Counted from the first letter of the stretch, positions 9,517-51,634 are shown. The stretch is DNA of 64,000 bases from Vicinamibacterales bacterium (GCA_963850725.1 CAWKMQ010000031.1:4221-68220); one strand, 5' to 3'. Notes: a model not told the origin generated them from the sequence alone. Program-made: numbers and translations.

Positions 9517-11634
9517 CTATGTCCTCCGCCGTGCGCGGCTCGCATCGAGGCTCCAGTTGATCTCGGCCTTCGGCAGGGCCTTGCGAATGCTGTTGAACCC
9601 CTGTTCGGTCAACTGGGTGTGATAGAGATCGAGATACTTCAGATTCGTCTGGCCGGCGAGCCACGTCAGCGACTTGTCCGTCACGTCGGTCCGATCGAGC
9701 CTGAGCTCGGTAAACGCGTGATTGTTCGCGAGCAGCGCGAGCCCGGCGTCGCTCACCGGCGTGTAGTTCAGGTTCAGCGCTTCGAGCTTCGGCAGCTTCG
9801 CCACCCAGGCCATGCCCGTGTCGGTGATGCTCGTCTGCTCGAGGCCGAGACGCTTCAATCCCGTGAGCTTCGTGATCATTTCCAGACCGGGCTCGGCAGA
9901 CCGCGTGAAACTCAGGTCCAGATCTTCGAGCGCGGACAACGACGCGAGCGCCGCAATTCCCTTTTCGGTTATGTCCACCGACGTCAGGTCGAGCCGCTTG
10001 AGGTTCTTCAGGGCCGCGAAGTGCCCCGTGCCGGCGTCGGTGATGTCGGTATGGCGCAGGTTGAGCGACTCGAGGCCCGTCAACTGCGCCAGTTGTTCCA
10101 TGCCCTCGTCCGCGATTGGCGAATTCCCGAGATCGAGCTCGCGAAGGTTCGAAAGCGCCTTCAGCGACGCGAGGCCGGTACCTTCCACGAGCGTGCTCGG
10201 CATGTGAAGCGCGCGCAGATTCGTGAGCGAGGCGAGCATCGGCAGCGCATTGTCGCCGAGCAGCGTGTGCCCGAGGTCGAGGCGCTCCAGCGTGCGAATC
10301 GCGGCCAGTTGTTCGAGGCCGATTGTGCTGACCTCGGTATGTTGCAGGCTCAGCTGCGTCAACTGCGGCAGCTTGCCGAGCACGACGAATTCCCTGTCGG
10401 TAATCGACGTGCCGTTGAGAGAGACGGCGGTGATCTTGCCGTCGGCCATCTGCACCTTGCCGCCGATGGCGCGGAGCCATTCGCTGACGGCCGCGTCGCC
10501 CCTGGTCGCGACATCCGAGGCCGCCATCGCCCGCTTCGGTTCGCGCTGCGAAGACTCGAGCATGAAGAGCTCGGTTTTGGGCAGCTTCGCGGCCAGGTCG
10601 CGCACACCCGCGGTCGTCACGCGGCTGTAGCGCAGATCGACGGTCCGGAGATTCGTCAGGCCGGCCAGCTTCGCGAGGCCCGCGTTGGTCACCTTCGTCC
10701 GGTACAGGCTGAGCTCTTCGAGCGCCGTCATGCTCTTCAGCGCGTCGAGGCCGGCATCGGTCACATCGGCGCTTTGCAGGTTCAGGCGGCGCAGCTTCGT
10801 CAGCTTCGACAATGCCGCAAGCCCTTGATCGGTCATCGACACGTCCGACAGGTCGAGCTCGACCAGGTTGGTCAGATCGGAGAGGTTCTGGATGCCGGCA
10901 TCCGTGATGGACGTGCCGCGCAGATACAACCGCTGCAGCGTCGTCTTCCCTTTCAGGCCGGCCATGCCCGAATCGTTGAACGTGACCACGTAGTTCAAAT
11001 CCAGGTGCGTCAGCGGAAAGGCCGCCAGCGACATACCCGAGCTGCGCGTCTGGTGAATGCGTACTTCCTTGAGGTCGGGCAACGACGTGAGCGTCTTCAG
11101 CGCGAGATCGTTGAAGGGGATATAGGTCTGGACGGGCTTGCTCATCACGAACTTCTCGAGCTCTTTCGCTTCGCTGAAGAGCGCGATGGTGGCCTGGACG
11201 CGCGGCGCCGGCTGGTCGTACCAGAGCCGGCCGTTGATGTACAGCTCCTTGAGATGCGGAAGGGGCGGCAGTTTCCGCAGCTCGTCCTGTAACGACGCGG
11301 CGTACATCGTGATGCCGGTGAAGTTCAGCGTGTGTATCTGGAAGTCGGTCGTGGGAAGGTCGGCCAGATCGGTAATCGGCTTGCGCTGCCCTTCGAGCAC
11401 GATGCTGCCGCCCATGCGGAGCATCCACTCCGCCACCATGCGATCGGCAGCGGGGCCTTCAATCTTCGAGGGTCGGGGGCCCGCCACACCGAACGCCGGG
11501 CCTTCGACAGGTTTGCCGGGCTCTTCGGCGGGTTGCTGCGCCGCCAGGGCCACCGGAACGAGCATCGAGACAAGGAGCGCGGCAATCGCCTGACGCCCAC
11601 GAAATTTTCGGGGAAGCTTGTACCCAACGGTCAT
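9517..11634 (-). CDS. secreted leucine-rich repeat (RNI-like LRR) protein, two LRR modules
   Basis: Intact 705-aa ORF with a signal peptide. There are two modules. Each opens with a xxEWLxxxGGxV motif and is followed by many 24-aa LRRs (TDAGL/TDQGL). Confidence 0.85.
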   Translation of the reverse strand: MTVGYKLPRKFRGRQAIAALLVSMLVPVALAAQQPAEEPGKPVEGPAFGVAGPRPSKIEGPAADRMVAEWMLRMGGSIVLEGQRKPITDLADLPTTDFQIHTLNFTGITMYAASLQDELRKLPPLPHLKELYINGRLWYDQPAPRVQATIALFSEAKELEKFVMSKPVQTYIPFNDLALKTLTSLPDLKEVRIHQTRSSGMSLAAFPLTHLDLNYVVTFNDSGMAGLKGKTTLQRLYLRGTSITDAGIQNLSDLTNLVELDLSDVSMTDQGLAALSKLTKLRRLNLQSADVTDAGLDALKSMTALEELSLYRTKVTNAGLAKLAGLTNLRTVDLRYSRVTTAGVRDLAAKLPKTELFMLESSQREPKRAMAASDVATRGDAAVSEWLRAIGGKVQMADGKITAVSLNGTSITDREFVVLGKLPQLTQLSLQHTEVSTIGLEQLAAIRTLERLDLGHTLLGDNALPMLASLTNLRALHMPSTLVEGTGLASLKALSNLRELDLGNSPIADEGMEQLAQLTGLESLNLRHTDITDAGTGHFAALKNLKRLDLTSVDITEKGIAALASLSALEDLDLSFTRSAEPGLEMITKLTGLKRLGLEQTSITDTGMAWVAKLPKLEALNLNYTPVSDAGLALLANNHAFTELRLDRTDVTDKSLTWLAGQTNLKYLDLYHTQLTEQGFNSIRKALPKAEINWSLDASRARRRT

Positions 11635-11790
11635 GCTGGTCTCCGTGGTGTTGAGCCTTCAATTGTAGTGGAAAGGGCCTGTTTCGTGGGCGTTTTCAGG
11701 GGTTTTCGGGCGCCGGACAGCGTGCGTTTTTGTATCATTTTGTGGCGTGCGCTCGCCACGGTCTTTCGTCTTGGCTCGTACGCCTCGGCG

Positions 11791-12198
11791 TCATTTCCGT
11801 CGCGTGGCCATCGTCTCCTCTGCCGAAATCGACCAGTTGATGCCGTTCGATTCCACGAGGAGCTCGTACAGCCGCGGGTCGTCGCCGAACTCCACGCTGC
11901 CGCCGCCCGCGCTGCGGTGTTCGGCGATGACTTTCAGCACGCGTCCGCTGATGCCGCTGCGCAGCGTCAGGAGGAAGGTACCCGGCCGCGCGTTGTCCTT
12001 GTTCTGCACCGTCCAGTTGATGCGAAACGATCCCGACTCGCTCACGAATCCGAGCGTCGTGTTGCTTTCGCCGTTCCAGGACCCGAGCTGCCGGCTGGTG
12101 CTCGGTGCAGCGCGCTCGGCCGGGGGTTCGGCCGGCGCCGGCCGGCACGACGCTCCCGCCACCGCAAGGACGAGCAGCAGACGGCTCGAGAAAGCCAT
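11791..12198 (-). CDS. hypothetical lipoprotein (135 aa)
   Basis: Lipobox-like LAVAGASC after a hydrophobic N-terminus. Coding-like composition. No family recognised. Confidence 0.6.
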   Translation of the reverse strand: MAFSSRLLLVLAVAGASCRPAPAEPPAERAAPSTSRQLGSWNGESNTTLGFVSESGSFRINWTVQNKDNARPGTFLLTLRSGISGRVLKVIAEHRSAGGGSVEFGDDPRLYELLVESNGINWSISAEETMATRRK

Positions 12199-12228
12199 GT
12201 GGACGAATAGTACAGCGTGTTCGGCGCG

Positions 12229-14485
12229 CTAGAAGCGATAGGAGTACTGGAATTTCGCCGACACCTTGGTGTCCTGCGGTCTGAACCGCAGGCTGTCGTT
12301 GTCCTCGCCCTCTTCCAGTTCGTGTATCCAACCCTGGTTGAACGCGAAGAACAGGTCGCTGCCGGGCTCGAGCGTCCAGCGAATCCGGCTCTGCCACCCG
12401 AGGTTCCTCGATCGGTTGTCGAACTGAACGAGATTCGAGAACGAGAGCCGCGGCGACGCCGCGTAGTTGATGTTGGCGGTCATGATTCGGGCGATGAAAT
12501 CCCCTTCGGGCAGACGCGCGAACGTCTGGTTCGTGGAGAGGTTCAGCGTAAACCAGGGCGGCAGCTTGTAGGCCATCGACGCCGTCACCTGCTCGGCCTG
12601 GCCCGACCAGTAGTTGCCCCAGGTGATGCTGACGGTCCCCGAAAGCGGCCGCTTGGCCGCCGTCGCAAACAGGTTGTTCCGGAACCGGGTGAACCGGTAC
12701 TCACCGGGCAGGAGAAACACGCCGGGCGAGATTTCGAACGTCTCGAAGAGGCGCTCGTAGGTCGGGTTGAAATCGAGGAAGCCGTGCATGCTGTCGCCCG
12801 ACTTGAAGTGCCAGTCCAACCAGGTGACATACACATCCCAGCTCTCGACCTGGTCGTTGTCGAGCCTCGTGAACCTGGTGAAGTAGATGTCGTGGTTCAT
12901 CTGCAGGATGTTGAGGAACGACGGACGCGGGTTGTAGCTGGCGCCCGCCCGCAGCATCCGCACGTTGTCGCGCTGCACGAACCCGAGCGCGGGCTTGAAG
13001 TTCGACTGGATATCGCGCATGGCGAACTGCGCCAGATACCGGTCGTTCGGATAGTTCGCCGAGAAGCCGTACAGACCAGTCGTTGCCCGGCGCCGCCGGA
13101 TTTTCGCTTCGCACGCCGTAGGCGTTGACCACGAAGTTGCGCCGCCCGCCGAGAAACCGCGACGTGGCCAGGCGCACATCGGCGCCGTACACCCGCCCTT
13201 CCTGGCCCGACGGCCGGATTGCCGTCGGTGAAGATGGCGCCGACATACGACTGCTGGAAAATGTTGCGCTTGATGCGGCCGACGAAAAAATTCTTTTCTT
13301 CGGCGATCAGCCGGGCCCCGGTCTCCAGATCGCCCGAACGCACATCCAGCACGCCGATATCGGTCCGCCCGACGGTGCCCGTCAGCTTGACGCCGGCATC
13401 GATCGGCACTTCCTGGCCCGCCGACGAGGCCAATCTGCCGGCTGAAGAACGGGAACAGGTCTGCGCCGGTCGCGGGGATGCCTCCCGGCGTTTCCGGTCC
13501 GGTGCTGGCGAAGCTGAACACGCCGGCGCCTTCGAGAAAGAACGCGCGCTTCTCCGGGAACAGCAGCGAGAAGCGCGTCAGGTTGATCTGCCGCGCGTCG
13601 ACTTCGGTTTCGCCGAAGTCGGTGTTGAACGTGGCGGTCAGCTTGAGGCTCGGCGTGACGTGGTAGAAGAGATCGAGACCGGGCTTGCGGTTGAAGTCGT
13701 CGCCCTGGTCGCGGCTCAGCCGCAGCCAGCTCCCTGCGAGAAAGGGGCGCAGATCCAGCCCGACGCCCTGTGACAGTCCCGCGAGGCTGTTGATCTCGCC
13801 GGCCTCGGATACCTGAAGGAACTGCGTCTGAAGGCGCGCACCCGACCAGCGATCGTCTTCGAGCTTCCGATACACCATGCGCGCGATGTTGAAGCCCCAG
13901 GCTTCCTGTCCGGCCGGAAAGCTGAGGCTCTTGAAGGGAATCGCGAACTCGGCGACCCACCCTTCGTCGGTGCGGCGCGTCTTCACCTCCCAGATCGCGT
14001 CCCATTCGGTGTTCAGCTGGCCATTCGAGAACGCGAGGCCATCGACCAGCGCGCCGGCCGGATTGGTCGCGAAATAAAACGCGCTGCGCTGGTCGCGGAA
14101 CGTGTCGAGCAGGATTTCGATGCGGTCGTCCGCCATCAGGCTCGCGTCGCGCGCCATCTGGCTGCCGATCACGCGCTCGGGCTCGGAATCGTAGGCGATC
14201 ACGCCGATGTACAGATTGCGCTCGTCGCGTACGCAGCATCACGTCCGTGCGTTCGGTCGGCTGCTCGCCTTCGTCGGGCTGCCGTTGAATCAGGTCTCCG
14301 ATTTTGGAAGCCGTGCGCCACACCGGCTCGGTGAGCGCCCCGTCGACGTCAATCGGCTCCGATGTGATCGTGACGGTGGCCGTTCTCGGAGCGGTAGTCG
14401 TAAGAGGAGGAGCCTGCGGGGCACCAAAGGCGGACGGCGAGAAAACTCCGAACACCACCAGGGTTCCCAGGACACGACGAATCAT
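12229..14485 (-). pseudogene. DUF5916 / carbohydrate-binding family 9-like outer membrane-type protein, about 4 frame changes
   Basis: Signal peptide MIRRVLGTLVVFGVFSPSAFG (ATG at 14485). Pieces in ORFs 13382..14758, 12229..14202, 12897..13433 and 12701..13246 join colinearly. The C-terminus ...KVSAKFQYSYRF is barrel-like. Switches near 14205, 13430, 13200 and 13090. Confidence 0.75.
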
Positions 14486-14552
14486 CCGCGTAAGAGTGTA
14501 TCCGCATCGAGGACGCCGGATCGGTTGTCGCAAAATGTTCTCGCGCAAGGCG

Positions 14553-15611
14553 TCACGCGGCGCGTGGCGTGACCATGGCGACACCGAACCGCTCTGCCCA
14601 TGGTGTGAGGGCCGGCACGATGCCTTCGTGCAGCGCAATGCCTTCGCGAATCTGCCGGCGCCTGCGCGCGAGCGCACCTTCGCCGGGAAGCCGGACGGGC
14701 GGGTTTCCCGGCGCCACCGGCGTCGTCTGGCACAGCTCGACGAGATGGCGCATCTCACGCGTAAACCCCTCGCGGCCGCCGAACGCGTCGGGATCGATCA
14801 TCTGGAGGAAGACAGACGCCGTCCACGGGCGCGGGCGTTCCGATCGTCCGTGACCCGAAAGCGCCGACGTCAGGGTCTCCACAATCAGCGCGAGCGCGAA
14901 ACCTTTGTGACCGAGCTCGATGCCGCCGAGCGGCAGCATCGCGCCGGGCCTGTCGCCGGCCAGCACCCGCGGATCGTCGGTCGGGCGGCCATCCGCGTCG
15001 ACCAGCCAGGGGCCCGGCAGACGCTCGCCGCTGGCGGCCAACCGTTTGTTCATGGCGTTGGTCGTCGTCGAGGCACTGATGTCGATGAGAATCGGATCGC
15101 CGCCGGTGGGAAATCCGGCTGCGAGCGGATTCGGCGTGATGCGCGACTGCACACCACCGTGCGGCGTGACGCCGGCGGCCGCCGGATCGGAACACATCAA
15201 GAGCATGACGAGCCCGGCGTCGGTCACCGGTTTCAGATACGCCTGCAGGCAGCCGATATGGTGGCCCCGGCCGATGACAATCGTCACGACCGGATGCGCG
15301 AGGATTCGCGATCGTGCTTCGGCAATGGCTTGTTTCACGAGCCATTGACCGGGCAGCCGGTGGCCGTCCCACGTCAGCGCCGATCCGAGATCGGCCACCA
15401 CTTCCGGCTCCCCCGACGTCGCCATCAGCCCGTCTCTGATCTGTTCGAGATACCCGGCCAGCTGATCGAGCCCGTGCGTGTCGTGGCCCAGCAAATCGCC
15501 TTCGACCATGACCTCGGCCATCGTGGTCGCACGAGCGCGCGGCATGCCGGCCTTTTCGAGGAGTTGCGATGCAAAGAGGACGAGATCGTCGGCTCGATAC
15601 CGTTCGGGCAC
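14553..15611 (-). CDS. Ldh family 2 oxidoreductase (malate/L-lactate/ureidoglycolate dehydrogenase family)
   Basis: Intact 352-aa ORF. DTHGL, PNPLAAGFP and HKGFALAL motifs typical of Ldh_2. Confidence 0.9.
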   Translation of the reverse strand: MPERYRADDLVLFASQLLEKAGMPRARATTMAEVMVEGDLLGHDTHGLDQLAGYLEQIRDGLMATSGEPEVVADLGSALTWDGHRLPGQWLVKQAIAEARSRILAHPVVTIVIGRGHHIGCLQAYLKPVTDAGLVMLLMCSDPAAAGVTPHGGVQSRITPNPLAAGFPTGGDPILIDISASTTTNAMNKRLAASGERLPGPWLVDADGRPTDDPRVLAGDRPGAMLPLGGIELGHKGFALALIVETLTSALSGHGRSERPRPWTASVFLQMIDPDAFGGREGFTREMRHLVELCQTTPVAPGNPPVRLPGEGALARRRRQIREGIALHEGIVPALTPWAERFGVAMVTPRAA

Positions 15612-15623
15612 GGTGAGATTTTA

Positions 15624-16241
15624 TTACGAGGCGGCCTCTCGAAAATCGTCGCGCCAGGCGGCGGACAGAGCCGGGCACTGAGACAGCTCGCGCGCCGCGT
15701 CGAGATCCATCGCGCCTTCAGCGCTGTAGGCGACGCCGTTGACGGCTTCGATCGTCCACCGGGCAAAGGGCCGGTCGACGAGCGTCAGCGCGTCGCCGGT
15801 CTCGACCACACCCGGCTCGATCACCCGGAAGTACCAACCGGTTCGGCCGCTCTTGATGACGAGCTTCGGCATGTCGAGCCGATTCCAGCGGCGTCCGAGC
15901 TTCCAGCATGGCGCGCGGGGCTGCGAGACCTGCACGACGGCGGTGCCGACGCGGAACGTGTCGCCAATGGACACGGTCGATTCGCGAAGTTCCGAAACCG
16001 AGAAGTTCTCTCCGAACGACGCGGGCCCGCATTCCTCCACGCCGAGCTCGCGCCGCCACTCGGGAAAATGCTCGGCGGAGTACACGCACACGGCCTTGTC
16101 GGGTCCGCCGTGCACTTTCAGATCGGCCTGACCATCTCCATCGAGATTCCGCAGGGAAAGACGAACCGGTCCCGACACGGGACTCTTGAAAATCCCCGTC
16201 GTCCAGGGGTCGTGGCCGCCGATTTCCCGCGGCCGTCCCAC
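15624..16241 (-). CDS. MOSC domain-containing protein (YiiM-like)
   Basis: GDGQADLKVHGGPDKAV and QPRAPCWKL motifs. The conserved N-terminal LLSINVG continues upstream of the GTG start, but no start codon lies before an in-frame TGA inside the repeat array. Confidence 0.85.
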   Translation of the reverse strand: MGRPREIGGHDPWTTGIFKSPVSGPVRLSLRNLDGDGQADLKVHGGPDKAVCVYSAEHFPEWRRELGVEECGPASFGENFSVSELRESTVSIGDTFRVGTAVVQVSQPRAPCWKLGRRWNRLDMPKLVIKSGRTGWYFRVIEPGVVETGDALTLVDRPFARWTIEAVNGVAYSAEGAMDLDAARELSQCPALSAAWRDDFREAAS

Positions 16242-16269
16242 GTTGATCGACAGCAGACGAGGGGTACAA

Positions 16270-16435
16270 GGTTCGTGGGTTCGTCAAGTTCGTTGAGGTT
16301 CGTGAGGTTCGTGGGTTCGTCGGGTTCGTGGGTTCGTCGAGTTCGTGCGGTTCGTGGAGTCCCGTGACCGAATCGCGTGGGCCGCGACCTCACGAACCTG
16401 CGAACTCACGAACCCCACGAACCCACGAACCCAGG
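16270..16435. repeat. Second inverted short-unit array: about 10 units of GTTCGTNNN (16270-16357) facing about 5 units of ACGAAC (16388-16432)
   Basis: Read directly. Same core, unit length and orientation logic as 3065-3256. It fills the gap between the DUF1501 stop (16441) and the MOSC start (16241). Confidence 0.9.
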
Positions 16436-16440
16436 TTCTT

Positions 16441-17611
16441 TCACCCCATTAATTCATAAGTGCCGCGGACGGCGGTGGAACCGGGAAAGACGCGGTCGGC
16501 TTGCGCCGGCGTCAGATCGAATGCCGCCGCGATCGCGCCTTTCAGCACCGCGCGCGTATCGAGCGTCGGCTTGAGATCGCGTCCCTCGAACAGCGCACGA
16601 TCGCCAAGGCCGGGCCAGTCGGAGAACACGGTCGAGCGCGCGACCTTCGGACCGATCACGAACCCGGCGCCCGCGGTGCCGTGATCCGTTCCGCGCGTGC
16701 CATTCGGGCGCGCCGTGCGTCCGAACTCGGTCATGACGACCACGGTCGTGTTCGACCACGCCGGCCCCATGTCGGTGCGAAGCGCCATCAATCCTTCCGC
16801 GAGCTGGCCGAGCAGCCGATCGAGCGCACCTCCCGCCATGCCCTGGTTCGCATGCGTATCCCAGCCGCTGAATTCTACTGCGGCGATGTTCGGGCCGCCG
16901 TCCTGACGCAGGATCTTGGCTGTGGCGCGCATGAGCGGCGTGATGCCCCCGCGCCGTGCGTTGCCGCCGGCCATCGGTTCTTCGCCGACGAGGTCCTGCT
17001 GCTGCACCGCGGCTTCAAATCGTCCGTACAAGACCTTGTCGGTGCGATACAGCGACGACAGACGATCGAGATAGGCATCGCTGACAGCCCCGAGCTGTGT
17101 GGGCGACCACGTCTGCACGTTGAACGATCCGGTGAGCGACCGCGGCATGCCCGAAGCGATCGCGATGCCCGAGCGCTCCCCTGGCATCACCTGAAGCAGC
17201 CGATTGAGCCAGCCATCGGACGATCCGACAGGCCGATCGATGCCGGTTTCGAGAATGGCCTGGCCGTCGAAATGGCTTCGCGTGCGGTACGGAATCGCCA
17301 TCGCGTGCAGAACCACGAGCTCGTTCTGTTGCCACAGCTCTCGCATCGGCGCCAGGCCGGGCGCCAGACCGAACGTGTCGTTCAATTCCGCCAGCTCCGA
17401 TTCCTCGAACGCGAACGCGCCTCTGAGGGATCGATACGAGGGATCGCCAAACGGCACCACGGCCGCGAGTCCGTCGAAACCTCCGCGAAGGAGGACGAAG
17501 ACGAACCGGCCGCCTTGCTTCACCTGCGCGAAGTTGACGACGGGAAAGCCGAACGTCGCGATGCCGCCGAGGCACATGTTGCGAACGAAGGTGCGGCGGT
17601 TCAGTGGTCAT
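16441..17611 (-). CDS. DUF1501 domain-containing protein (sulfatase-like fold, Tat signal), one frame change right after the start
   Basis: ORF 16441..17577 plus upstream NRRTFVRNMCLGG in the same frame, preceded by a TGA. The ATG at 17611 (MTT...) is in another frame and overlaps the DUF1800 stop as ATGA. This implies a 1-nt indel near 17600. Confidence 0.85.
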
Positions 17612-19061
17612 CTCCATTGAAAAGCAGGACCTGCCAGTGCGAGCGCGACACGCTCGTCCGCGGGGATCGAGTTGTCGGCAAGGAATCCGCGGAGCGGATC
17701 GCCGGACGGGATATCGACGAGATCGAGAAGCCCGCGTGGGTCGACGCGCTGTCACGCGAAGGCGTCGCGCGAATCGTGCGCGCGAGCTCGGCGCGGTTCA
17801 GCAGCGAATCGGGATCGGCCCATTCCTGCGTCGTGTCCCCGAACCCCTTGGGCGATTGCGGCGACCAGAGCGGATGGCGCAATTGACGCAGCAGCGGCAG
17901 CACCGACTCGCTGACGTCTGTGCGCGTTGAACGCGCGGAGCGCGGCGACGAGCCAGTCCTGCGGCGTGCGGAACTTCCGTCGCCCCTTCGCTCCAGGCGT
18001 CGTCGAGGTCGACGAGCGCGAGCGACACGGCGCGAAGATCGCCGTCGCTGTCGCGAAACACGCGCGCGATGCGATCGACCGCCGCCGCCGGCGGCTGGTC
18101 TCCGACGAAATGCGTGACGAGCTTCGTCGCGACAAAGCGCGCGGTGGACGGATGGCGGCAGAGCGCGCGGATCACCCGCTCGCCTTCCTCTTCACCATCG
18201 TCGCCGTATTTCACCCCGAGAACAGTCTTCGCACCCGGCTCGTGCAGCAGCGCCTGAAACGTGAATCCGATGGGACCGTTGCGGTCCGGATCCGCGGTGG
18301 CTGGCGTGGCGCCGGTCCGGCCGTTCGGCCTGCGGCCGCGCTGGGCCGTGACCTGCGGCGCTCCCCGCACCAGCCCGGCCACCGTCCACCCGGTGAGAAT
18401 CTTCGCGAGCTCCTGGACATCCTGCTGCGTGTATCCACCGTCAACGCCAAGCGTGTGAAGCTCGAGCAGCTCGCGCGCGTAGTTTTCGTTCAACCCGCGC
18501 TTCTGGCCCCGGCCGCCGCGGCCGCTGAACTGTCCTCCGCGCGAATTGGGGCCGATCGACTGGAAGTTGTCGAGGTAGACGAGCATCGCCGGATGCCGCG
18601 CGGACGCGAGCACCATGTCTTCGAAGCGGCCGAGCACATGCGGCCTGATGGCTTCGCGCTCGTAGCTGCCGGCCAGCGGCGCGACCAGGACCTTGGCGCC
18701 GGTGGACACGCACAGATGGTTCGACCAGAAGGCGACGAGCCGCTCGACAAACGGCCGATCGCTCGTGACGCGCTGGGTCGAGCGCCGCGTGGCTTTCGGC
18801 GGCCGCAATCTGGACGAGACGCCGGCGGGCCTGTTGCCGCGCCTGCTGTTGTTCCTGTTGTCCGGCGGCCTGCCCGACCGCCCGAAATGCATGGAGGGCT
18901 TCGGCGATAGCGGCGGGTGATGCTTCGGCCGGGGCGGCAAGGAGGGGCGCGCCGCCCTGCAGCTGCGCGCGCAGCCAGGCCCGCGGCTCGCTCGCCAGCC
19001 GGGTGTCGCCCGCACGTGCGCCGAGACCAAACCCGTTGAGCGCGCGATGTGTGGCGTTCAT
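17608..19061 (-). pseudogene. DUF1800 domain-containing protein, at least 4 frame changes
   Basis: N-terminus MNATHRALNGFGLGARAGD (18441..19079). Core FWSNHLCVS...LLELHTLGVDGGYTQQDV (17798..19030). The C-terminal pieces lie in three further frames and end ALALAGPAFQWR. Confidence 0.75.
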
Positions 19062-19173
19062 GATGACCTCTGATCCCATTAGACGACGTCAGGGGCCGAA
19101 AGTGCATACGCGTCACAAACTTTTCACGGTTTGCGGCAGGCGTCAAAACGGGACACGACGCGGTTCAACAGGA

Positions 19174-19250
19174 GGTTCGGCAGTTCGGAGATTCCGGAGC
19201 TAGGCGAACTCTTCGAAACGAACTCCTCGACTGACGAACCTGACGACTCG
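19174..19250. repeat. Short degenerate copy of the GTTCG / CGAAC inverted array
   Basis: ggttcggcagttcggag ... cgaactcttcgaaacgaactcctcgactgacgaacctgacgactcg. It lies downstream of the hydrolase gene and upstream of the DUF1800 start. Confidence 0.7.
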
Positions 19251-19271
19251 CAACCTTGCACTCCGGCCTTC

Positions 19272-21016
19272 TTAGCAGCGCGACGATCTCGCGTGGCGTG
19301 AGCTTTTCCCGGCGAACGCTCGCGCCGGAAAGCGTGAAGGCGCTCGCCGGCGTTGTGGATCGCGATGCGATCGCCCGCGAGCGCGAGGGCGGTGGACAGA
19401 TCGCCCGCGCGGCGCAGGCCCGGGATGTACAACCGATCGACGAAGGCCGCGTCGCTGCGTCGTGTCGAAGTCGCCGACATCGAGCACCATCTTCCGGCCC
19501 GGCTCGATTGCCGACGCGAGGAGAGCCGCGAGCGCGTTGTCTCCAGATGCCACGAGCACCGCATCGGGTGCGACGCGCAACGCCTCGACGATGTCGGCCA
19601 CACGCTGGCTCGCCGCGGTCCTGTTGTAGGTGTCGAAGTGCGGAATCTTTTCTGCTTCGGCCGCATCGAACGGCGTGAAATCGATCGCCTTCACGATGAA
19701 GCCCGCCGAACGGAGTTGACGCTCCAGGGCCGGATCGGCCCCGGCGACGATCGCCGTTCGACGCCGGCCCGACCCGGCGGGTGTCGCCGCGCCAGGTGAT
19801 GACGACCCATATCCCAGCGCCAGACGCAGCGCGCGCGCTCGTGCGTCGAGCGGCAACGATGCCAGCTGGCCTCGAGCGGCGGCAATCCAGTTTTCGGTGA
19901 GTTGAGCGGCCGTCACCGCGCCGTCGGGCACGGGCCGCTGATGGAAGACGAGCAGATCGGGCAGCGGCTCCGGTGTGAACGCGCGCTCTTCGCGCTTGAC
20001 GTCGGCGGGGGCGCCTTGCAGCCAGCGCGCCATCCACGCGTAGACCGCTTCGCGCGAGTCGCGGTTGTAGTTGTGAGGCGCGTCGAACTGCACGCCGTGC
20101 ACGCGATCGGCCGCGCCCCTCAGCGCATACAGCTCGCGAACCGCCGGGTACTCCCGCTTCATCGTGTTCGTCGTCCAGTCGCCGGTGGCCGACACCATCA
20201 AGAGCGGCCGCGGGGCAATCGTCGCGGCGATTTCCACGTTGGTCGTGTCGAGCCGCAGCCCGGGCTGGTTTTCGCAGAGGCAGCCGCCCTGCATCTGGAG
20301 CGAGATCATGTTGACGGGCGCGGCGACGGCCACACGTTCGTCAACCGCCGCGAGGAGAAAGACCTGCGTGCCGCCGCCCGATGCGCCTGTCGCGCCGATG
20401 GCGTCGCGCCGCACGTAAGGCAGCGACTCGAGAAAGTCGAGCGCGCGGATGCCGTTCCACAACTGCAGCCCCGCGACGCTCAGGCCCCACAGCTTCTCGC
20501 GCGGGCCGCCGAACAACCGATGCGCGAAGCTGCCAGCTGTCGTTGTAGCCGACCATGTCGATCGTGAACACGACGAAGCCCTGGCGCGCGAGGTTGATCG
20601 CGCGCCCCGGCACCGAGGCAATCGCCGAGTTTTCGAGGCGGCCGTACGCCCAGTGCCCGTGCGGCGACAGAATCGCCGGAAACGGGCCCTCGCCGGCAGG
20701 ACGGTAGAGATTCCCCGTGACAAAAAACCCCGGCAGGCTTTCGAAGTACACCTTCGATACGCTGTAGTCGTCGCGCTTGATCTCGCCGAACACCTGCGCG
20801 CGCGAGCGGCGTTCGCTCGGGCATGGGCATCAATCCGGCGGATTCCAGAATCAGTTCGCGTATGTGCGCGGCGCGCTGGTTCCAGGCGTCGAGCGACGTG
20901 AAGTGCGGCGGCGCGAACGTATCGTTGAGCGTCCGATACGTCCTGGTCTGGGCCAGCGTCGTCTGTCCACCGAGCACGACGGCCGTCAACGCAAGCACGC
21001 CTAGAGAAATTCGCAT
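19272..21016 (-). pseudogene. secreted alpha/beta hydrolase (acetyl xylan esterase / dienelactone hydrolase-like) with C-terminal extension, at least 4 frame changes; 3' end uncertain (19165-19275)
   Basis: Signal peptide MRISLGVLALTAVVLGG (ATG at 21016). Pieces in ORFs 20480..21076, 20341..20793, 19272..21401 (GATGASGGG nucleophile elbow), 19124..19666 and 19165..20037. Confidence 0.65.
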
Positions 21017-21049
21017 ATGACCCCCTCGTTTCGGGCCTGATGGTAGCAG

Positions 21050-21079
21050 TTGACACGCCCGGCTGAATTTGTTCATAAT
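21050..21079 (+). promoter_or_regulatory. sigma70-like promoter of the PadR gene: TTGACA (21050-21055), 18-nt spacer, CATAAT (21074-21079)
   Basis: Read directly. The ATG at 21090 is only about 4-5 nt from the predicted start site and no Shine-Dalgarno intervenes. AATTTGT direct repeats at 21066-21072 and 21077-21083 overlap the -10 element. Confidence 0.5.
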
Positions 21080-21089
21080 TTGTAATTAA

Positions 21090-21422
21090 ATGGCGCGCGA
21101 CCTCCTCACCGACTTCGAGCTGATGATTCTCCTGGCCATCCTGCGGCTCGGCGATCAGGCCTACGGCGTGCCGATCGCGCGGGAAATCGAAACCACCGGA
21201 CGCCGCAGCGTGATTCTCGGTGCGGTCTATACCGCCCTCGAGCGCCTCGAGCGCAACAGCATGGTATCGTCGCGGATGGGCAACCCCAGCCCCGAGCGCG
21301 GGGGCCGCGCCAAGCGATTCTTCGACGTCACGCCGCAGGGACTCAAGGCGGTCAAGGACACGCAACGCTCGCTCGTCGCGCTCTGGAAAGGCGTGGCTCA
21401 ACTGAAGGGAGGGACGGTATGA
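21090..21422 (+). CDS. PadR family transcriptional regulator
   Basis: 110 aa. The winged-helix core LAILRLGDQAYGVPIAREIE...GAVYTALERLERNSMV is typical of PadR. Confidence 0.9.
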   Translation: MARDLLTDFELMILLAILRLGDQAYGVPIAREIETTGRRSVILGAVYTALERLERNSMVSSRMGNPSPERGGRAKRFFDVTPQGLKAVKDTQRSLVALWKGVAQLKGGTV

Positions 21423-21880
21423 CAGCCCCGAAGCCGCCCAGACTCGCTGAAGCGCTGCTCGGCAGGCTCGCGCTCGATAACGAGCCGCTCGCCGGCGACA
21501 TCATCGAAGAGTTCCGGCGCCGGAACTCGCGGCTCTGGTTGTGGCGCCAGCTCATCGCCGCGCTCGTCATGCAGGCCCTCTACGCCCCGCATCCTCCCGT
21601 CGCGCTCAACCTGACGCCGACCGATCCGGTGGTCGCCGAGTGGCTGATGTGGAAGCGGCTCGACCAGGAAAGAGAAGCGGTGAGCCTCACCGGCAGCGGC
21701 GTCGAAGGCATCGGCGGGCTGACGATGGTCATCCTCGGCTTCATGATGTCGACCGTTATTCCTGCGATCTGGTGGTTTGTCGTTGGAGGGATCGGAGCGG
21801 GGCTCGTGCTTGGCATTGTGAAGTTGAGGTCACGGAGGTTGCGTGTCTCAACACGGAGACACGGAGGCACGGAGGATTAG
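21419..21880 (+). CDS. membrane protein with PadR-associated (ADOP-like) N-terminal peptide; C-terminal tail encoded by CACGGAG repeats
   Basis: Start overlaps the PadR stop (ATGA). N-terminus PPRLAEALLGRLALDNEPLAGDIIEEF. Two predicted TM stretches. The last about 15 codons (RRLRVSTRRHGGTED) run through the repeat. Confidence 0.6.
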   Translation: MTAPKPPRLAEALLGRLALDNEPLAGDIIEEFRRRNSRLWLWRQLIAALVMQALYAPHPPVALNLTPTDPVVAEWLMWKRLDQEREAVSLTGSGVEGIGGLTMVILGFMMSTVIPAIWWFVVGGIGAGLVLGIVKLRSRRLRVSTRRHGGTED

Positions 21881-22251
21881 GGCTTCTTTGAATGTAGCGC
21901 GGCATCGGGCGCGCCGTTCATGATGCGCTTGAGCAGGTCGACTCGATAGGCCGCGTCAAAGACTGCCCTTGTAACACAGCGGCACGATCCGCTCGGCGAC
22001 GACCTTCAATCCCCGCTCACGCAATTCATAGATCAGACAGGCACGGTACACACTCTCGAGCAATCCCGGGCCAAGTATGCGATGAACCTCGATCGCCGCC
22101 TGGATTATCAGGAATGTGATGTCATTGAAGGGGTGTGGAGTCACAGACGATGCGAAGTGCAACCATCACGCCGCCGGAAATCTTCGAAATTCACGACATG
22201 CTTTTCGATATTGCAGTTTCTTCTCCGTGCCTCCGTGCCTCCGTGTTGAAG
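21846..22251. mobile_element. Cassette bounded by 29-nt inverted repeats (21846-21875 and 22223-22251) that encloses a degraded GxxExxY gene
   Basis: Left repeat is tctcaacacggagacacggaggcacggagg. The reverse complement of the right repeat is cttcaacacggaggcacggaggcacggag (26/29 identical). Both are built of CACGGAG heptamers. Confidence 0.4.
21877..22162 (-). pseudogene. GxxExxY (PD-(D/E)XK_3 family) protein remnant: frameshifted and internally deleted
   Basis: ORF 21956..22162 gives ...IIQAAIEVHRILGPGLLESVYRACLIYELRERGLKV with the GxxExxY motif. After a premature stop, another frame gives AVFDAAYRVDLL|KRIMNG. The catalytic core between DLL and the C-terminal KRI appears to be missing. Confidence 0.7.
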
Positions 22252-22286
22252 AAAGCGAAACTCCGTGCCCTCAATCAGCTCCTCCG

Positions 22287-23652
22287 TCACTTGACGTATA
22301 CAGTTTTGATATTCACGAACTCCTTGATCCCGTAGCTCCCCAACTCGCGGCCGTACCCGGATTCCTTGATGCCGCCAAACGGCAGGCGGGGATCGGACGC
22401 GACCAGCGCGTTGACGAACGTGCACCCCGCTTCGAGCTCACCGGCGACGCGCTCGCCCCTCGCCACGTCCCTCGTAAACACCGCGGCGCCCAGCCCGAAG
22501 ATGCTGTCGTTCGCGATGCGGATCGCGTCGGCCTCGTCGCGTGCCGTCACGATCGCCGCGACCGGCCCGAAGAGCTCTTCGTCGTACGCCGGCATGCCCT
22601 TCCGGACACCGGTCAAGACCGTCGGCGGATAGAACGACCCGCGGCCTGACGGGAATCTCGCCACCAAGCAGCGCTTTCGCGCCCTTCGCCACCGAGTCGA
22701 CGACCTGTTTGTGCAGCTCGTCGCGCAGGTCCGGCCGCGACTGCGGGCCGACGTCGGTGCCGTCCGCCATGGGGTCGCCCATCTTCCTGGTCTTCATCGC
22801 GGCCACGAACTTCTCGGTGAACGCCGCCGCGAGAGACTCGACGACGATGAAGCGCTTGGCGTTGACGCAGCTCTGACCCGAATTGATCAGGCGCGAGGTG
22901 ACGCACGTGTTCACCGCCAGATCGAGGTCGGCATCGTCGAGCACGATGTACGCATCCGATCCCCCAAGCTCCAGCACGGTTTTCTTGATCACCGCTCCGG
23001 CCTGCGCCGCAACGGCTTTGCCGGCGGGCGTGCTGCCGGTCAACGTCACCGCAGCCACGAGCGGATTCTCGATGACCGCTTTCACCTGACGGCTGCCGAT
23101 CAGCAGCGTTCTGAACACGCCCCTGGGAAATCCAGCCTCGACAAACACCTGCTCGATCGCCAGCGCGCAGCCCGGCACGTTCGACGCGTGCTTCAGCACG
23201 CCGGCATTGCCGGCCATCAGCGCGGGCGCCGCAAACCGGAAGACCTGCCAGAAGGGAAAATTCCACGGCATGACGGCGAGCACGACGCCGATCGGCTCGA
23301 ACGCCACGCCCGATTTCGATGCGTCCGTCTTGATCGTCTCGGGCGCCAGATGGCCCTCGGCATGGTCGGCGTAGTAGTCGCAGCCGAGCGCCGATTTTTC
23401 GGCTTCGGCAATCCCCTGCTTGAAGGGTTTGCCCATTTCGAGCGCCATCAGCGTCGCGAACTCTTCCTTCCGCTGCCGAAGAATGGCGGCGGCCTTCTTC
23501 ATGGGCACGGCGCGCTCCCTGAAAGGGACCTTGCGCCAGGTCTTCCATGCCTCATGCGCTTCGGCCACAGCCGCGGCCGTTTGTTGAGGCGTCATTTCGT
23601 CGTAGGTTTTGATCGTGTCGCCTGTGGAGGGGTTGACCGATTCGATAGCCAT
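22287..23652 (-). CDS. NAD(P)-dependent succinate-semialdehyde dehydrogenase-type aldehyde dehydrogenase, one frame change near 22650
   Basis: ORF 22438..23652 (N-terminal 330 aa; LELGGSD, SGQSC) joins ORF 22287..22667 (GSFYPPTVLTGV...PFGGIKESGYGRE). Confidence 0.85.
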
Positions 23653-23819
23653 AGCCCCCTATTATCGCTCGCGTGTCCGGTGTTCAGCGAGGAGCGGCAG
23701 ACGTGTGGCGTGAGCGTGAGTGGAAGCGAATTACACGTGGGTGAGTCGGGCGCGGGGCTTCGTCTCGACGGCCGCCGGCCGCCGGCCCAGCGCCAGAACG
23801 TCCTGGATCATGAGCGAGC

Positions 23820-24452
23820 TCATCGTTCTGCAGCGTCGATGGGGCTCAATGGCTGGCATTCGACACGCGTCCGGCCGGCCGCAATGGCGGCGCAGATGGC
23901 GTCCGGGTGCAGCTCGGCGTCAATCAGCGAATACGTCGTGCCCAGTTGACGCAGGCGGTGCACGTCGCAGTTCCCGACGAGAGGCTTGCCGTTCGCCGCC
24001 GCCCATCGCTCGGCCCGTGTATTGAAGTTGACGAACCGCGTGAACATCGCGTTGTACTCGACGGCGTCGAAGAGCTCCGCGTGCCGATCCATGGCGCCTC
24101 GCAGGCAGGTGGGCGCCGGGAAGAACGGATGGGGCGCAATGACGAGCCCGGGCTCGCGCTGCTTCAGACGCGCGAGGTCTGCAAACGTGCGTACGCCATC
24201 GGTGCCGCTCTTGAAATTGAGCAGCAGCACGTGGCGTCCCTCAATCGATCGCTCCGCACCCGGAATCAGGACGAGGCCTCGCTCCCTGGCGTACGGCGTC
24301 AGCTCCGAAATGTCGAGCTGATGTTCGTGCAGCGTGATCGCGAGCGCGTGATAGCCGAGAGAAACCGCGTGATCGATGAGCTCGGTGGCGGTATGGGGAA
24401 TCCGATCAATCGGGTCGTCGGACGTGTGCGTGTGTAGTTCGACCTTCAGCAT
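23820..24452 (-). CDS. PHP domain-containing metal-dependent phosphoesterase
   Basis: Intact 210-aa ORF. N-terminal ELHTHTSDD PHP signature. Confidence 0.8.
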   Translation of the reverse strand: MLKVELHTHTSDDPIDRIPHTATELIDHAVSLGYHALAITLHEHQLDISELTPYARERGLVLIPGAERSIEGRHVLLLNFKSGTDGVRTFADLARLKQREPGLVIAPHPFFPAPTCLRGAMDRHAELFDAVEYNAMFTRFVNFNTRAERWAAANGKPLVGNCDVHRLRQLGTTYSLIDAELHPDAICAAIAAGRTRVECQPLSPIDAAER

Positions 24453-37551: not shown

Positions 37552-37552
37552 G

Positions 37553-41365: not shown

Positions 41366-41409
41366 CCGAACCTCACGAACTAGACGAACCTCACGAACCC
41401 ACGAATCCG
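41366..41409. repeat. Orphan half-array, ACGAAC orientation only (about 5 units)
   Basis: ccgaacctcACGAACtagACGAACctcACGAACccACGAAtccg, between convergent genes. Confidence 0.8.
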
Positions 41410-51590: not shown

Positions 51591-51634
51591 GGTTCGTGGG
51601 TTCGTCAGGTTCGTCGGGTTCGTCGGATTCGTGG
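51591..51634. repeat. Orphan half-array, GTTCGT orientation only (about 5 units)
   Basis: GGTTCGTGGGTTCGTCAGGTTCGTCGGGTTCGTCGGATTCGTGG, starting 11 nt after the stop codon. Confidence 0.85.

What the first reader, a model, noticed from the sequence alone, without database searches (positions are those of the whole stretch)
16270..16435. Second full copy of the GTTCGT/ACGAAC hairpin array, apparently sitting on the start of a MOSC gene
About 10 GTTCGTNNN units (16270-16357) face about 5 ACGAAC units (16388-16432). They lie between the DUF1501 stop (16441) and the MOSC gene.

The MOSC reading frame continues upstream of its GTG (16241) as ...PRLLSIN-VGRPREIGG. LLSINVG is the conserved extreme N-terminus of YiiM-like MOSC proteins.

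However, no ATG, GTG or TTG lies between that motif and an in-frame TGA at 16284-16286, which is inside the array. There is also no Shine-Dalgarno.

The array therefore seems to have replaced or over-run the original start region. The gene must either initiate non-canonically (CTG or the internal GTG) or be silenced.

Together with 3065-3256, this makes two cases where the array directly abuts a downstream start codon.
Basis: partly seen in the sequence, partly recalled or inferred. Interest (0 to 1): 0.7.

Follow-up and report, generated by a model that had tools for sequence, protein, structure and literature searches.

The report
Hairpin repeat inserted at MOSC start
A 176-base hairpin made of short tandem repeats has been inserted exactly where one gene's stop codon overlapped the next gene's start; it belongs to an abundant, apparently undescribed repeat family of soil Acidobacteria, and the "missing" start codon is most likely a one-base assembly error.

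Summary
The array is real. On the + strand there are 10 GTTCGT units (16271-16360) facing 5 ACGAAC units (16392-16430), far beyond chance.

It is a 176-bp insertion (16265-16440). A contig about 98% identical (L001) lacks it and shows the MOSC GTG start overlapping the DUF1501 TGA stop (GTGA). Close relatives form an allelic series at this junction: no insert, an 8-nt footprint between two TTGA copies, and arrays of 146, 176 and 203 bp, one of them inverted.

The start was not over-run. A TTG (16269-16267) abuts the last repeat unit. It is in frame in the closest MAG and in five independent metagenome runs. The window carries one extra base (16265) and at least 9 other frameshifts within about 9.5 kb, so the loss is probably an assembly error. 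MOSC is under purifying selection.

The array belongs to a multi-copy Vicinamibacterales family. Units have an RGTTCGT core plus 1-2 variable bases. Paired arrays always read GTTCGT then ACGAAC, and they lie next to gene 3' ends.

Full-length relatives carry a four-helix-bundle gene (PF05635, the 23S-rRNA intervening-sequence / Avd-like family) between the two arrays. The window copy lacks that gene and is most likely a miniature derivative. How the element moves and what its RNA does remain inferred.

The parts
16265..16440 (-). 176-bp inserted hairpin repeat element. In gene orientation it reads AAGAACCTGG-(GTTCGT unit)x5-loop-(ACGAAC unit)x10-CTTGTA.
   Evidence: It is absent from L001, with flanks matching on both sides. 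Insert length is 176 with 1-nt ambiguity. RNA fold is -96.7 kcal/mol, z = -6.2.
16270..16360 (+). Arm of 10 GTTCGT units on the + strand. On the mRNA strand this is the 3' arm of 10 ACGAAC units.
16361..16391 (.). Central non-repeat loop of about 30 nt.
   Evidence: It is a shorter variant of the loop in L122 and L087.
16392..16430 (+). Arm of 5 ACGAAC/GCGAAC units on the + strand. On the mRNA strand this is the 5' arm of 5 GTTCGT units.
16441..16444 (-). GTGA: DUF1501 stop TGA (16441-16443) overlapping the ancestral MOSC GTG start (16442-16444). That GTG is now cut off from the MOSC ORF.
   Evidence: Comparison with L001 and L002. From this GTG the frame stops after 12 codons (read).
16267..16269 (-). 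TTG, the most likely real MOSC start codon. It abuts the last repeat unit and is one base out of frame in the window as given.
   Evidence: In frame in L087, in X25-X28 and in X4. Relatives' gene calls start L-SARLLSINVG.
16265..16265 (.). Extra base (T on the + strand) that shifts the TTG out of frame. Probably an assembly indel.
   Evidence: Missing in all four independent runs X25-X28. The window has at least 9 other frameshifts in 12-21 kb and one at about 2927.
15624..16264 (-). MOSC / YiiM-like coding sequence, including its stop codon.
   Evidence: PF03473 E 1.8e-37 and PF03475. 99% identical to P0001. pN/pS 0.08-0.34.
16239..16241 (-). GTG, the first in-frame start in the window as given. 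It would remove the conserved N-terminal RLLSIN strand.
16441..17577 (-). DUF1501 gene, the upstream cistron of the conserved DUF1800-DUF1501-MOSC-Ldh_2 cluster.
   Evidence: synteny in L002 and L003
3065..3256 (.). Sister copy of the same family: 10 GTTCGT units plus 7 ACGAAC units. It lies between the Omp85 stop (3269) and the GTG start at 3061.
41367..41405 (.). Single-arm copy: 4 ACGAAC-like units (3 of them exact ACGAAC; TRF 4.4 copies) after the stop of the gene ending at 41327.
51591..51632 (.). Single-arm copy: 4 exact GTTCGT units plus one ATTCGT variant (TRF 4.8 copies), starting 11 nt after a TAG stop. An array of a different unit (GACTCC) follows directly.

Best explanation
**What it is.** Window 16265-16440 is an ORF-less copy of a family of hairpin-forming repeat elements found in Vicinamibacterales (Acidobacteriota).
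- Each arm is a tandem array of 8-9-bp units: a conserved core RGTTCGT plus 1-2 variable bases.
- The two arms face each other, always GTTCGT units first and ACGAAC units second.
- Full-length members carry, between the arms, a roughly 140-aa four-helix-bundle protein gene. This is PF05635, the 23S-rRNA intervening-sequence / S23p family, reported as homologous to the DGR accessory protein Avd.
- The family therefore resembles rRNA intervening sequences that live outside rRNA. The window copy, which has no ORF, is probably a miniature derivative of such an element (inferred).

**What happened here.**
- Shown: the element entered the 4-bp stop/start overlap (TTGA or GTGA) of DUF1501 and MOSC.
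- Shown: the overlap is present on both sides of the insert in L087 and L210. DUF1501 therefore keeps its stop, and MOSC keeps a TTG start that now abuts the last repeat unit (16269-16267).
- Shown: the array then changed quickly in place by gain and loss of units, by whole-element inversion (L087) and by near-complete deletion (L210).
- Inferred, likely: the window's lack of an in-frame start comes from one extra base at 16265, most likely an assembly indel.

**How it acts (inferred).**
- At the DNA level it is a selfish or neutral insertion that persists next to gene 3' ends.
- In the DUF1501-MOSC transcript it forms a hairpin of about 55 bp. The base of the hairpin brings the upstream stop and the downstream TTG close together.
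- A stem of that length is a plausible RNase III substrate, as for rRNA intervening sequences. The likely effects are processing of the operon mRNA and weaker or altered translational coupling, not silencing.
For: **Insertion and its boundaries.**
- L001 is the empty site: GTGACCGCTCGT. L002 shows an ATGA overlap.

**Allelic series at one junction, within about 95-98% DNA identity.**
- L210: TTGA-gagaggcc-TTGAGCGCT.
- L087: TTGA-146 nt-TTGACCGCT.
- L122: TTGA-203 nt-TCGAGCGCC, with a new TTG at codon 5.
- Window: GTGA-176 nt-TTGTACCCC.
- The window and L122 elements align in the same orientation (154/168). L087 aligns as the reverse complement (score 181 against 103).

**Start codon.**
- X25-X28 all lack base 16265. 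X4 lacks one base at 16260.
- Gene calls in the 90% cluster begin L-SARLLSINVG, M/L-LSINVG and V-TARLLSINVG.

**Window indel errors.**
- Frame switches occur inside the CBM9/DUF5916, DUF1800 and GCE-like genes.
- There is an extra base at about 2927 in the MDMPI_N gene, where X3 and X25 each lack one base.

**Gene is alive.** pN/pS is 0.08-0.34. Metatranscriptome contigs lie on MOSC.

**Family.**
- A public-genome scan with a 4-unit pattern finds facing arrays only in Vicinamibacterales MAGs.
- Among 349 units the period is 9 in 63% and 8 in 34%. The base before the core is a purine in all but one.
- All 15 paired arrays read GTTCGT then ACGAAC.
- Of 31 close gene ends, 27 are 3' ends (my count; binomial p = 3e-5).

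**Link to the ORF.**
- The L045 cargo has 57 PF05635 homologues at E about 1e-20.
- All 6 copies of that gene in held DNA (4 independent loci) have GTTCGT units 5' and ACGAAC units 3'. The ORF's last codons and its stop lie inside the array.
- P0149 matches PF05635 at 1.6e-19 and PDB 2GSC at 2.8e-9.

**Literature.**
- IVS elements have a terminal stem, an S23p ORF, RNase III excision and tandem heptamers of variable number (PMC4990558).
- Avd is reported as homologous to 2GSC (PMC10053308).
Against: - No transposition or excision event is observed directly, and no enzyme for mobility is identified. The four-helix-bundle protein has no known catalytic activity.
- The loop of the window copy does not align with internal sequence of full-length elements. 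"Miniature derivative" is therefore an inference from the shared arms.
- The TTGA duplication rests on a single insertion site. TTG also occurs as an ordinary spacer inside the arrays, so the array itself could have supplied the start.
- Arms of one locus are no more complementary to each other than to arms of other loci: 0.553 against 0.575, p = 0.81. Selection may act on the unit, for example as a protein-binding site, rather than on the hairpin.
- The extra base at 16265 could be a real strain-specific frameshift. No read-level data from the window's own sample were available.
- pS distances put the window equidistant from L001, L087 and L122. Insertion cannot be separated from excision on a tree.
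Confidence: 0.6

Rival explanations
1. The start loss is real. In this strain a genuine 1-nt insertion separates the TTG from the ORF. MOSC is then translated from the internal GTG 16241 (or a CTG), lacking its first 9 residues, or it is a young pseudogene.
For: - The window as given has no in-frame start upstream of GTG 16241.
- Gene callers on other assemblies also called VGRPREIGG starts (P0202, P0207, P0211).
- Another lineage lost the edge TTG (TCG in L122), so that start is evidently fragile.
Against: - Five independent runs and L087 have the TTG in frame.
- The window shows at least 9 further frameshifts in neighbouring conserved genes, as expected from an indel-prone assembly.
- Where the edge TTG was lost (L122), a compensating TTG appeared. 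pN/pS is low.
- The N-terminal RLLSINVG is conserved in all homologues.
Confidence: 0.15
2. The array is not an inserted element. It grew in place by slippage and template switching from a small local hairpin or terminator at the gene junction.
For: - Unit number and spacers change quickly between orthologous copies.
- Single-arm and composite arrays exist.
- More distant orthologues carry arrays of other units at the same junction.
- L210 has only an 8-nt filler, which could be a seed rather than a footprint.
Against: - The empty sites L001 and L002 have no spacer or hairpin at all. The two genes overlap there.
- The same RGTTCGT unit, in the same arm order, occurs at many unrelated loci and genomes and around a specific gene family.
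- The TTGA is duplicated.
Confidence: 0.1
3. The functional entity is not the hairpin but the arrayed units. They would be binding sites, in RNA or DNA, for an oligomeric protein. The obvious candidate is the pentameric four-helix-bundle protein encoded by full-length copies, in the way the TRAP ring binds spaced GAG repeats. Array-only copies would then titrate or respond to that protein and so modulate neighbouring genes.
For: - The 7-nt core is strictly conserved while spacers vary. The period mixes 8 and 9 nt.
- Arms show no locus-specific covariation.
- Arm polarity relative to the ORF is fixed.
- The protein's PDB relative 2GSC is a toroidal homopentamer (PMC4990558). Avd is reported as its homologue.
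Against: - There is no binding data.
- Unit counts per arm (4-16) show no preference for multiples of five.
- The 64-kb window contains no copy of the protein gene.
Confidence: 0.2
4. The arrays are transcription terminators or 3'-end stabilisers kept by selection at gene ends. The copy at the MOSC junction insulates DUF1501 from MOSC.
For: - 27 of 31 close gene ends are 3' ends, and arrays fill the whole spacer between convergent genes.
- Canonical hairpin-plus-T-run terminators are not enriched in the window: 12 against 10 expected.
- In distant orthologues the arrays lie upstream of a conserved TAAAAT box that precedes MOSC.
Against: - No U-tract follows the hairpin in either direction.
- A strong terminator between translationally coupled genes of a conserved cluster would starve MOSC and Ldh_2, yet MOSC stays under purifying selection.
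- The position bias may simply reflect where insertions are tolerated.
Confidence: 0.15

Closest known systems
23S rRNA intervening sequences (IVS) with an S23p ORF (Leptospira, Coxiella, Brucella, Xanthomonas relatives)
   Same: - A selfish insertion bounded by complementary termini that form a long stem.
- The loop may hold a PF05635 four-helix-bundle ORF, and ORF-less versions exist.
- The Coxiella IVS even has tandem heptamers of variable copy number upstream of the ORF, with the RNase III cut at the first repeat (PMC4990558).
- Full-length relatives of the window array carry a PF05635 gene in the same position.
   Different: - These elements are not in rRNA. They sit in intergenic DNA next to stop codons of protein genes.
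- Each stem arm is a tandem array of 5-16 units of 8-9 nt, not a unique inverted repeat.
- RNase III processing is untested here.
REP / BIME elements and REPINs (RAYT-associated)
   Same: - Short, high-copy, extragenic and hairpin-forming.
- They lie close to or overlap ORF ends and can donate stop codons.
- They occur in clusters of variable composition (PMC3733652).
   Different: - The unit here is a non-palindromic 8-9-mer, not a 20-40-nt palindrome.
- There is no GTAG or CGTC tag.
- The only associated ORF is a four-helix-bundle protein, not a Y1 transposase.
- Genuine GTAG-tagged REP-like hairpins occur separately in the window (37590-37625 and 4897-4922).
MITEs (miniature inverted-repeat transposable elements)
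   Same: - A non-coding element with inverted ends, present or absent between close strains.
- A short duplication of the target (TTGA) at the one site that can be checked.
- Longer relatives carry an ORF.
   Different: - The ends are arrays of many short units, closer to the subterminal repeats of some eukaryotic transposons (own knowledge).
- No transposase is identified.
- The copies are not near-identical. They share only the unit.
Short tandemly repeated heptamers in intergenic DNA: cyanobacterial STRR (own knowledge) and TAACTGA repeats of Beggiatoaceae (PMC4679880)
   Same: Lineage-specific arrays of 7-9-nt units, confined to intergenic regions, of unknown function and copy-number variable.
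   Different: Those are described mainly as direct repeats. PMC4679880 reports 169 direct sets and one indirect. Here two opposed arrays form a hairpin, units have variable spacers, and a specific ORF family is associated.
MIRUs of Mycobacterium (own knowledge, not checked in the paper library)
   Same: Repeats inserted in intercistronic junctions of operons where stop and start codons overlap, with both codons preserved.
   Different: MIRUs are 40-100-bp direct repeats that carry small ORFs maintaining translational coupling. The element here has no through-ORF, because the ancestral GTG frame stops after 12 codons.

Membership tests
rRNA-type intervening sequence (IVS) element | Inserted in a helix (25 or 45) of the 23S rRNA gene | tested here: not met
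   The window copy lies between DUF1501 and MOSC. Full-length relatives lie between protein genes.
rRNA-type intervening sequence (IVS) element | Complementary termini forming a long stable stem | tested here: met
   RNA fold -96.7 kcal/mol, z = -6.2. Sister copy -101.9 kcal/mol, z = -8.9.
rRNA-type intervening sequence (IVS) element | S23p / PF05635 ORF in the loop (present in some IVS) | tested here: inconclusive
   Absent from the window copy. Present in all 4 independent full-length loci bounded by the same arrays.
rRNA-type intervening sequence (IVS) element | Excision from the transcript by RNase III | not testable with these tools
   Only Logan contigs of metatranscriptomes were available. 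No RNA end mapping was possible.
REP / BIME | Unit is a 20-40-nt imperfect palindrome with a GTAG or CGTC tag | tested here: not met
   The unit is RGTTCGT plus 1-2 nt, non-palindromic and without a fixed tag. Definition taken from PMC3733652.
REP / BIME | High-copy, extragenic, close to ORF ends | tested here: met
   Four loci in 64 kb. Several loci per MAG. Arrays start 0-19 nt from stop codons.
REP / BIME | Cognate RAYT (Y1 transposase) gene flanked by the repeats | not tested
   No systematic search for a Y1 transposase was made. The only ORF found between arrays is PF05635.
MITE | Terminal inverted repeats | tested here: met
   Opposed arrays, 75-94% complementary over 23-32 nt.
MITE | Target-site duplication | tested here: inconclusive
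   TTGA lies on both sides in L087 and L210, and is degenerate in L122 and the window. This is one insertion site only, and TTG is also an ordinary array spacer.
MITE | Derived from an autonomous element encoding a transposase | tested here: inconclusive
   Longer relatives exist, but they encode a four-helix-bundle protein with no known transposase activity.
Intrinsic (rho-independent) terminator | GC-rich hairpin followed by a U-tract | tested here: not met
   The hairpin is present, but no T-run follows it on either strand. The consensus scan of 10000-24000 reports no terminator-like site at the array.
CRISPR array | Direct repeats of 24-48 nt separated by unique spacers of similar size | tested here: not met
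   Units are 8-9 nt with 1-3-nt spacers, arranged as two opposed arrays.
MOSC / YiiM-like protein (the downstream gene) | MOSC beta-barrel domain plus the YiiM 3-alpha domain, with the conserved N-terminal [LIV][LV]S[ILV]N[VI]G strand | tested here: met
   PF03473 at 1.8e-37 and PF03475 at 3.6e-5. The N-terminal motif is encoded at 16256-16236.

The most novel reading that the evidence does not exclude
The GTTCGT/ACGAAC arrays are the ends of a previously unrecognised class of mobile, IVS-like elements. Their only gene, an S23p/Avd-like pentameric four-helix-bundle protein, would bind the arrayed units (RNA or DNA) and promote the element's spread or maintenance next to stop codons. Parallel families would use other units and other small ORFs, for example the CACGGAG arrays around a GxxExxY PD-(D/E)XK gene at 21848-22249. 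If so, two very large protein families of unknown function would gain a role, rRNA intervening sequences would be explained as one special case, and a new source of operon rewiring in soil Acidobacteria would be defined.
Probability: 0.2. Interest if true: 0.85.

Novelty: new variant of a known kind. Interest (0 to 1): 0.6.

Why it matters
**For annotation.**
- Array insertions sit exactly on stop/start overlaps.
- Together with long-read indel errors, they can make live genes look start-less.
- Gene callers handled this same gene in at least five different ways.

**For biology.**
- Vicinamibacterales are among the most abundant soil bacteria.
- Their intergenic DNA appears to be colonised by fast-evolving hairpin arrays of several unit families. 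These arrays repeatedly occupy the same junctions.
- The GTTCGT family is tied to the PF05635 four-helix-bundle gene (S23p / Avd-like). That protein family has been known since the 1990s from rRNA intervening sequences, and it still has no function outside DGRs.
- A defined, repeated nucleic-acid partner sequence gives a direct handle for binding and processing experiments.

Tried and rejected
- **Rfam.** Only sub-threshold matches to plant miRNA precursors, which reflect a generic long hairpin. Rejected.
- **Promoter within the array's 3' part.** I saw no -10/-35 arrangement on reading, and the consensus scan of the region reports no promoter-like site at the array.
- **Loop flip between the window and L122.** Suspected by eye, but the alignment shows the same orientation with a deletion. 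Dropped. Only the L087 inversion is claimed.
- **Conserved element terminus AACCT.** Seen next to three window copies, but absent in other genomes' copies. Not a family feature.
- **Empty-site search for array 1 in Logan contigs.** Contigs break inside the arrays, so no empty allele was recovered. The search did reveal the frameshift at about 2927.
- **No array-skipping contig.** In runs X1-X4 no contig skipped the whole array 2.
- **Metatranscriptomes.** Low-depth contigs on MOSC only. They say nothing about RNA ends.
- **Window loop against full-length elements.** Only the array parts align.
- **Profile search of PDB for Avd.** Only 2GSC was found. The Avd link rests on the literature.
- **Literature.** I found no description of these arrays.
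- **GxxExxY contexts.** Short arrays lie nearby in L202 and L203 but in inconsistent orientation. L204 shows a 60-nt duplication instead. The GxxExxY association is left as a lead.

Full report

Yes.
- The + strand has ten exact GTTCGT hexamers from 16271 to 16360, spaced 8-10 nt. After about 30 nt there are four ACGAAC and one GCGAAC from 16392 to 16430. TRF reports both arrays.
- The two-unit pattern GTTCGTNNNGTTCGT occurs 21 times in the window against 0.01 expected.
- The hits cluster at four loci: 3065-3256, 16270-16435, 41367-41405 and 51591-51632.
- The stretch folds into one long imperfect hairpin: RNA -96.7 kcal/mol, z = -6.2; DNA z = -5.7.
All lie on the - strand: DUF1800, DUF1501 (stop at 16441-16443), MOSC/YiiM and Ldh_2. 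The order is conserved in relatives.
- Upstream of GTG 16241 the frame reads *RTHEPCTPRLLSINVG, with no in-frame start.
- Homologues start M-x-x-R-[LIV]-[LV]-S-[ILV]-N-[VI]-G.

**2. The array is an insertion into a stop/start overlap.**

- The closest protein, P0001 (99% identical), lies on contig L001, which is 97.6% identical in DNA.
- L001 reads ...TTGATGGGGTGACCGCTCGTCTGCTGTCGATCAACGTG. The MOSC GTG overlaps the DUF1501 TGA.
- The window matches L001 up to that GTGA and again from CC(C/G)CTCGTCTG. In between are 176 extra bases, 16440 down to 16265, with 1-nt ambiguity.
- L002 (76% protein identity) has an ATGA overlap and no insert.

**3. An allelic series at one junction.**

| Allele | Relation to the window | Junction |
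|---|---|---|
| L001 | 97.6% DNA identity | GTGA overlap, no insert |
| L210 | same 90% protein cluster | ggTTGA gagaggcc TTG AGC GCT CGT: two TTGA copies, 8 nt between |
| L087 (Vicinamibacterales MAG MFD02242.bin.1.84) | 95.5% over 6.2 kb | TTGA + 146-nt array + TTGACCGCTCGG; TTG start in frame and touching the last unit |
| L122 | 98% protein identity | TTGA + 203-nt array + TCG AGC GCC CGT TTG CTA; edge TTG lost, new in-frame TTG at Leu-5 |
| Window | - | GTGA + 176-nt array + TTGTACCCC; TTG one base out of frame |

- The L122 allele is widespread. P0208-P0213 occur on several contigs each (up to 9), up to 31 kb long.
- The window and L122 elements align in the same orientation (154 of 168 aligned bases identical).
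- The L087 element aligns as the reverse complement (score 181 against 103), although its flanks are collinear. The simplest reading is an in-place inversion by recombination between the opposed arms.
- Synonymous distances place the window equidistant from L001, L087 and L122. I cannot say whether L001 never had the array or lost it precisely.

**4. The "missing start".**

- The last unit is followed by TTG at 16269-16267, one base out of frame.
- Logan contigs from four independent soil and rhizosphere runs (X25-X28, 97-98% identical) cover 16100-16298 and include the first array units. All lack the base at 16265.
- That gives ACGAACC TTG TCC CCT CGT CTG CTG TCG ATC AAC GTG, with the TTG in frame. 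A fifth run (X4) lacks one base at 16260.
- The window is indel-rich. tblastn of L003 proteins shows frame switches inside CBM9/DUF5916, DUF1800 and the GCE-like gene: at least 9 in about 9.5 kb.
- The MDMPI_N/DinB-like gene beside array 1 is split at about 2927, exactly where X3 and X25 each lack one base. The Omp85 gene is split too.
- MOSC has pN/pS of 0.08-0.34 among these alleles, and metatranscriptome contigs lie on it.
- I conclude that the gene is alive and normally starts at the TTG on the array edge. The window's frameshift is most likely an assembly error (about 0.8). A real strain-specific frameshift remains possible.

**5. What the array belongs to.**

- A scan of one genome per species with a four-unit pattern returned more than 118 loci. 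Facing arrays occur only in Vicinamibacterales MAGs. Most other hits are one-directional perfect repeats.
- Over 349 units, the period is 9 nt in 63% and 8 nt in 34%. The base before each GTTCGT is a purine in all but one. The remaining 1-2 positions vary.
- All 15 paired arrays read GTTCGT then ACGAAC. None has the opposite order.
- Arrays begin 0-19 nt after stop codons and fill the whole spacer between convergent genes, as in L005, L011 and L071.
- Of 31 gene ends within about 35 nt of an array, 27 are 3' ends (my count from the table; binomial p = 3e-5). In that light the MOSC case is an exception, caused by the stop and start overlapping.
- Arms of one locus are no more complementary to each other than to arms of other loci: 0.553 against 0.575, p = 0.81. 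The pairing therefore comes from the family consensus, not from locus-specific co-evolution.
- At the same DUF1501-MOSC junction, more distant orthologues carry opposed arrays of other units: CAGAGRCG, CACAGAGA, GGTTCCA, GTTGGTA, and a 21-nt GTAG hairpin. Others have no insert.

**6. Link to a gene.**

- In L045 the GTTCGT and ACGAAC arrays are 558 nt apart. The cargo matches PF05635 weakly.
- That cargo has 57 clear homologues annotated as four-helix-bundle proteins, 58-75% identical for nearly all of them, E about 1e-20.
- In every context with DNA the architecture is the same:
  1. flanking host DNA (the upstream gene's stop codon in L205 and L208)
  2. 5-16 GTTCGT units
  3. a leader of about 130-150 nt
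  4. an ORF of 141-144 aa whose last codons (T-N-P-R-T) and stop lie inside the first ACGAAC units
  5. 6-10 ACGAAC units
- These contexts are L205, L206/L207 and L208/L209. Together with L045 they make 4 independent loci and 6 copies.
- P0149 matches PF05635 at 1.6e-19 and PDB 2GSC at 2.8e-9.
- 2GSC is the toroidal pentameric S23p. This family is encoded in 23S rRNA intervening sequences, which have stem-forming termini and are excised by RNase III. The Coxiella IVS also has tandem heptamers of variable number before the ORF (PMC4990558).
- The DGR protein Avd is reported as homologous to 2GSC (PMC10053308).
- The window copy has no ORF, and its loop does not align with full-length interiors. 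Calling it a miniature derivative is an inference from the shared arms.

**7. How it most likely works.**

- Shown: insertion at the overlap, preservation of stop and start, rapid change in place, family membership, and the ORF association.
- Inferred: the hairpin brings the upstream stop and the TTG together at its base. The minimum-free-energy fold even pairs GGGGUG, which includes the stop region, with UACCCC just after the TTG.
- Inferred: a stem of about 55 bp is a plausible RNase III substrate. The likely result is processing of the operon mRNA and altered coupling, not silencing.
- The mobility mechanism is unknown.

**8. Comparison and novelty.**

- The closest known kinds are rRNA intervening sequences with S23p ORFs, REP/BIME elements, MITEs, and intergenic heptamer arrays.
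- The array meets some features of each and fails defining ones (see the membership table).
- I found no description of these arrays in the paper library.
- I rate it a new variant of a known kind.
The element family behind it is the interesting part.

Noticed in passing
window 12000-21000; about 2927; about 3757: Many conserved genes are broken by frameshifts relative to relatives: CBM9/DUF5916, DUF1800, the GCE-like gene, MDMPI_N/DinB-like and Omp85. Where short-read contigs cover the site (about 2927), they lack one base. The window looks like an indel-prone long-read assembly.
   Followed up: partly
window 21848-22249: Three CACGGAG units (21848-21875) and three CTCCGTG units (22223-22249) exactly bracket a truncated GxxExxY / PD-(D/E)XK ORF (TIGR04256, E 6.6e-16). 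This is a second array-plus-small-ORF element with a different unit and a different gene.
   Followed up: partly
window 37650-37720; L126 junction: An ORF-less copy of the CACGGAG family: GCACGGAGG...CCTCCGTGTCTCTGTGACTCCGTGTTGAGAC. The same GTGTTGAGAC end appears at 21840-21850 and at the DUF1501-MOSC junction of L126.
   Followed up: no
window 37545-37625 and 4895-4953: GTAG-tagged REP-like hairpins (GGGCGGGTC...GACCCGCCCTAC) flanked on one side by heptamer arrays: AAAGTAG x7 at one site and CTACTTT x3-5 at the other. The heptamer contains the GTAG tag.
   Followed up: no
window 51644-51706: Eight units of GACTCC(N2) follow directly after the GTTCGT array at 51591-51632. This is a composite of two unit families without a facing arm.
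   Followed up: no
window 42440-42545: About ten GGAACC units, followed by two short GTTC remnants. The same unit family forms a full hairpin at the DUF1501-MOSC junction of L136 and a single arm in L140.
   Followed up: no
L126-L143, just upstream of MOSC: A conserved motif, CTCGCGTAAAATCTAGCGGACC, lies immediately before the GTG start in many 63-70% identical orthologues. It could be a -10 box giving a near-leaderless mRNA. It is absent from the window's clade, where the two genes overlapped.
   Followed up: no
L050 (Verrucomicrobiota MAG) 6923-7903: A GxxExxY gene is flanked by GGTTCGTG units on one side and CACGAACC units on the other. This is the same core as the Vicinamibacterales arrays, in a different phylum and with the other small-ORF family.
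   Followed up: partly
L204 (GCA_021847505.1) 640-1300: A GxxExxY gene is inserted at the 3' end of a MutY-like gene, with a direct duplication of about 60 nt of the host gene's end on both sides.
   Followed up: no
L045 7028-7045: The upstream host ORF ends ...GGG GTT CGT TAA. The first array unit supplies its last two codons, and the spacer supplies the stop codon.
   Followed up: no
window 34609-34816 and 49926-50002: Two further strong inverted repeats that are not built of short units: 36-nt arms at 89% complementarity, 136 nt apart; and 32-nt arms around GGGCTGAAGCCC.
   Followed up: no
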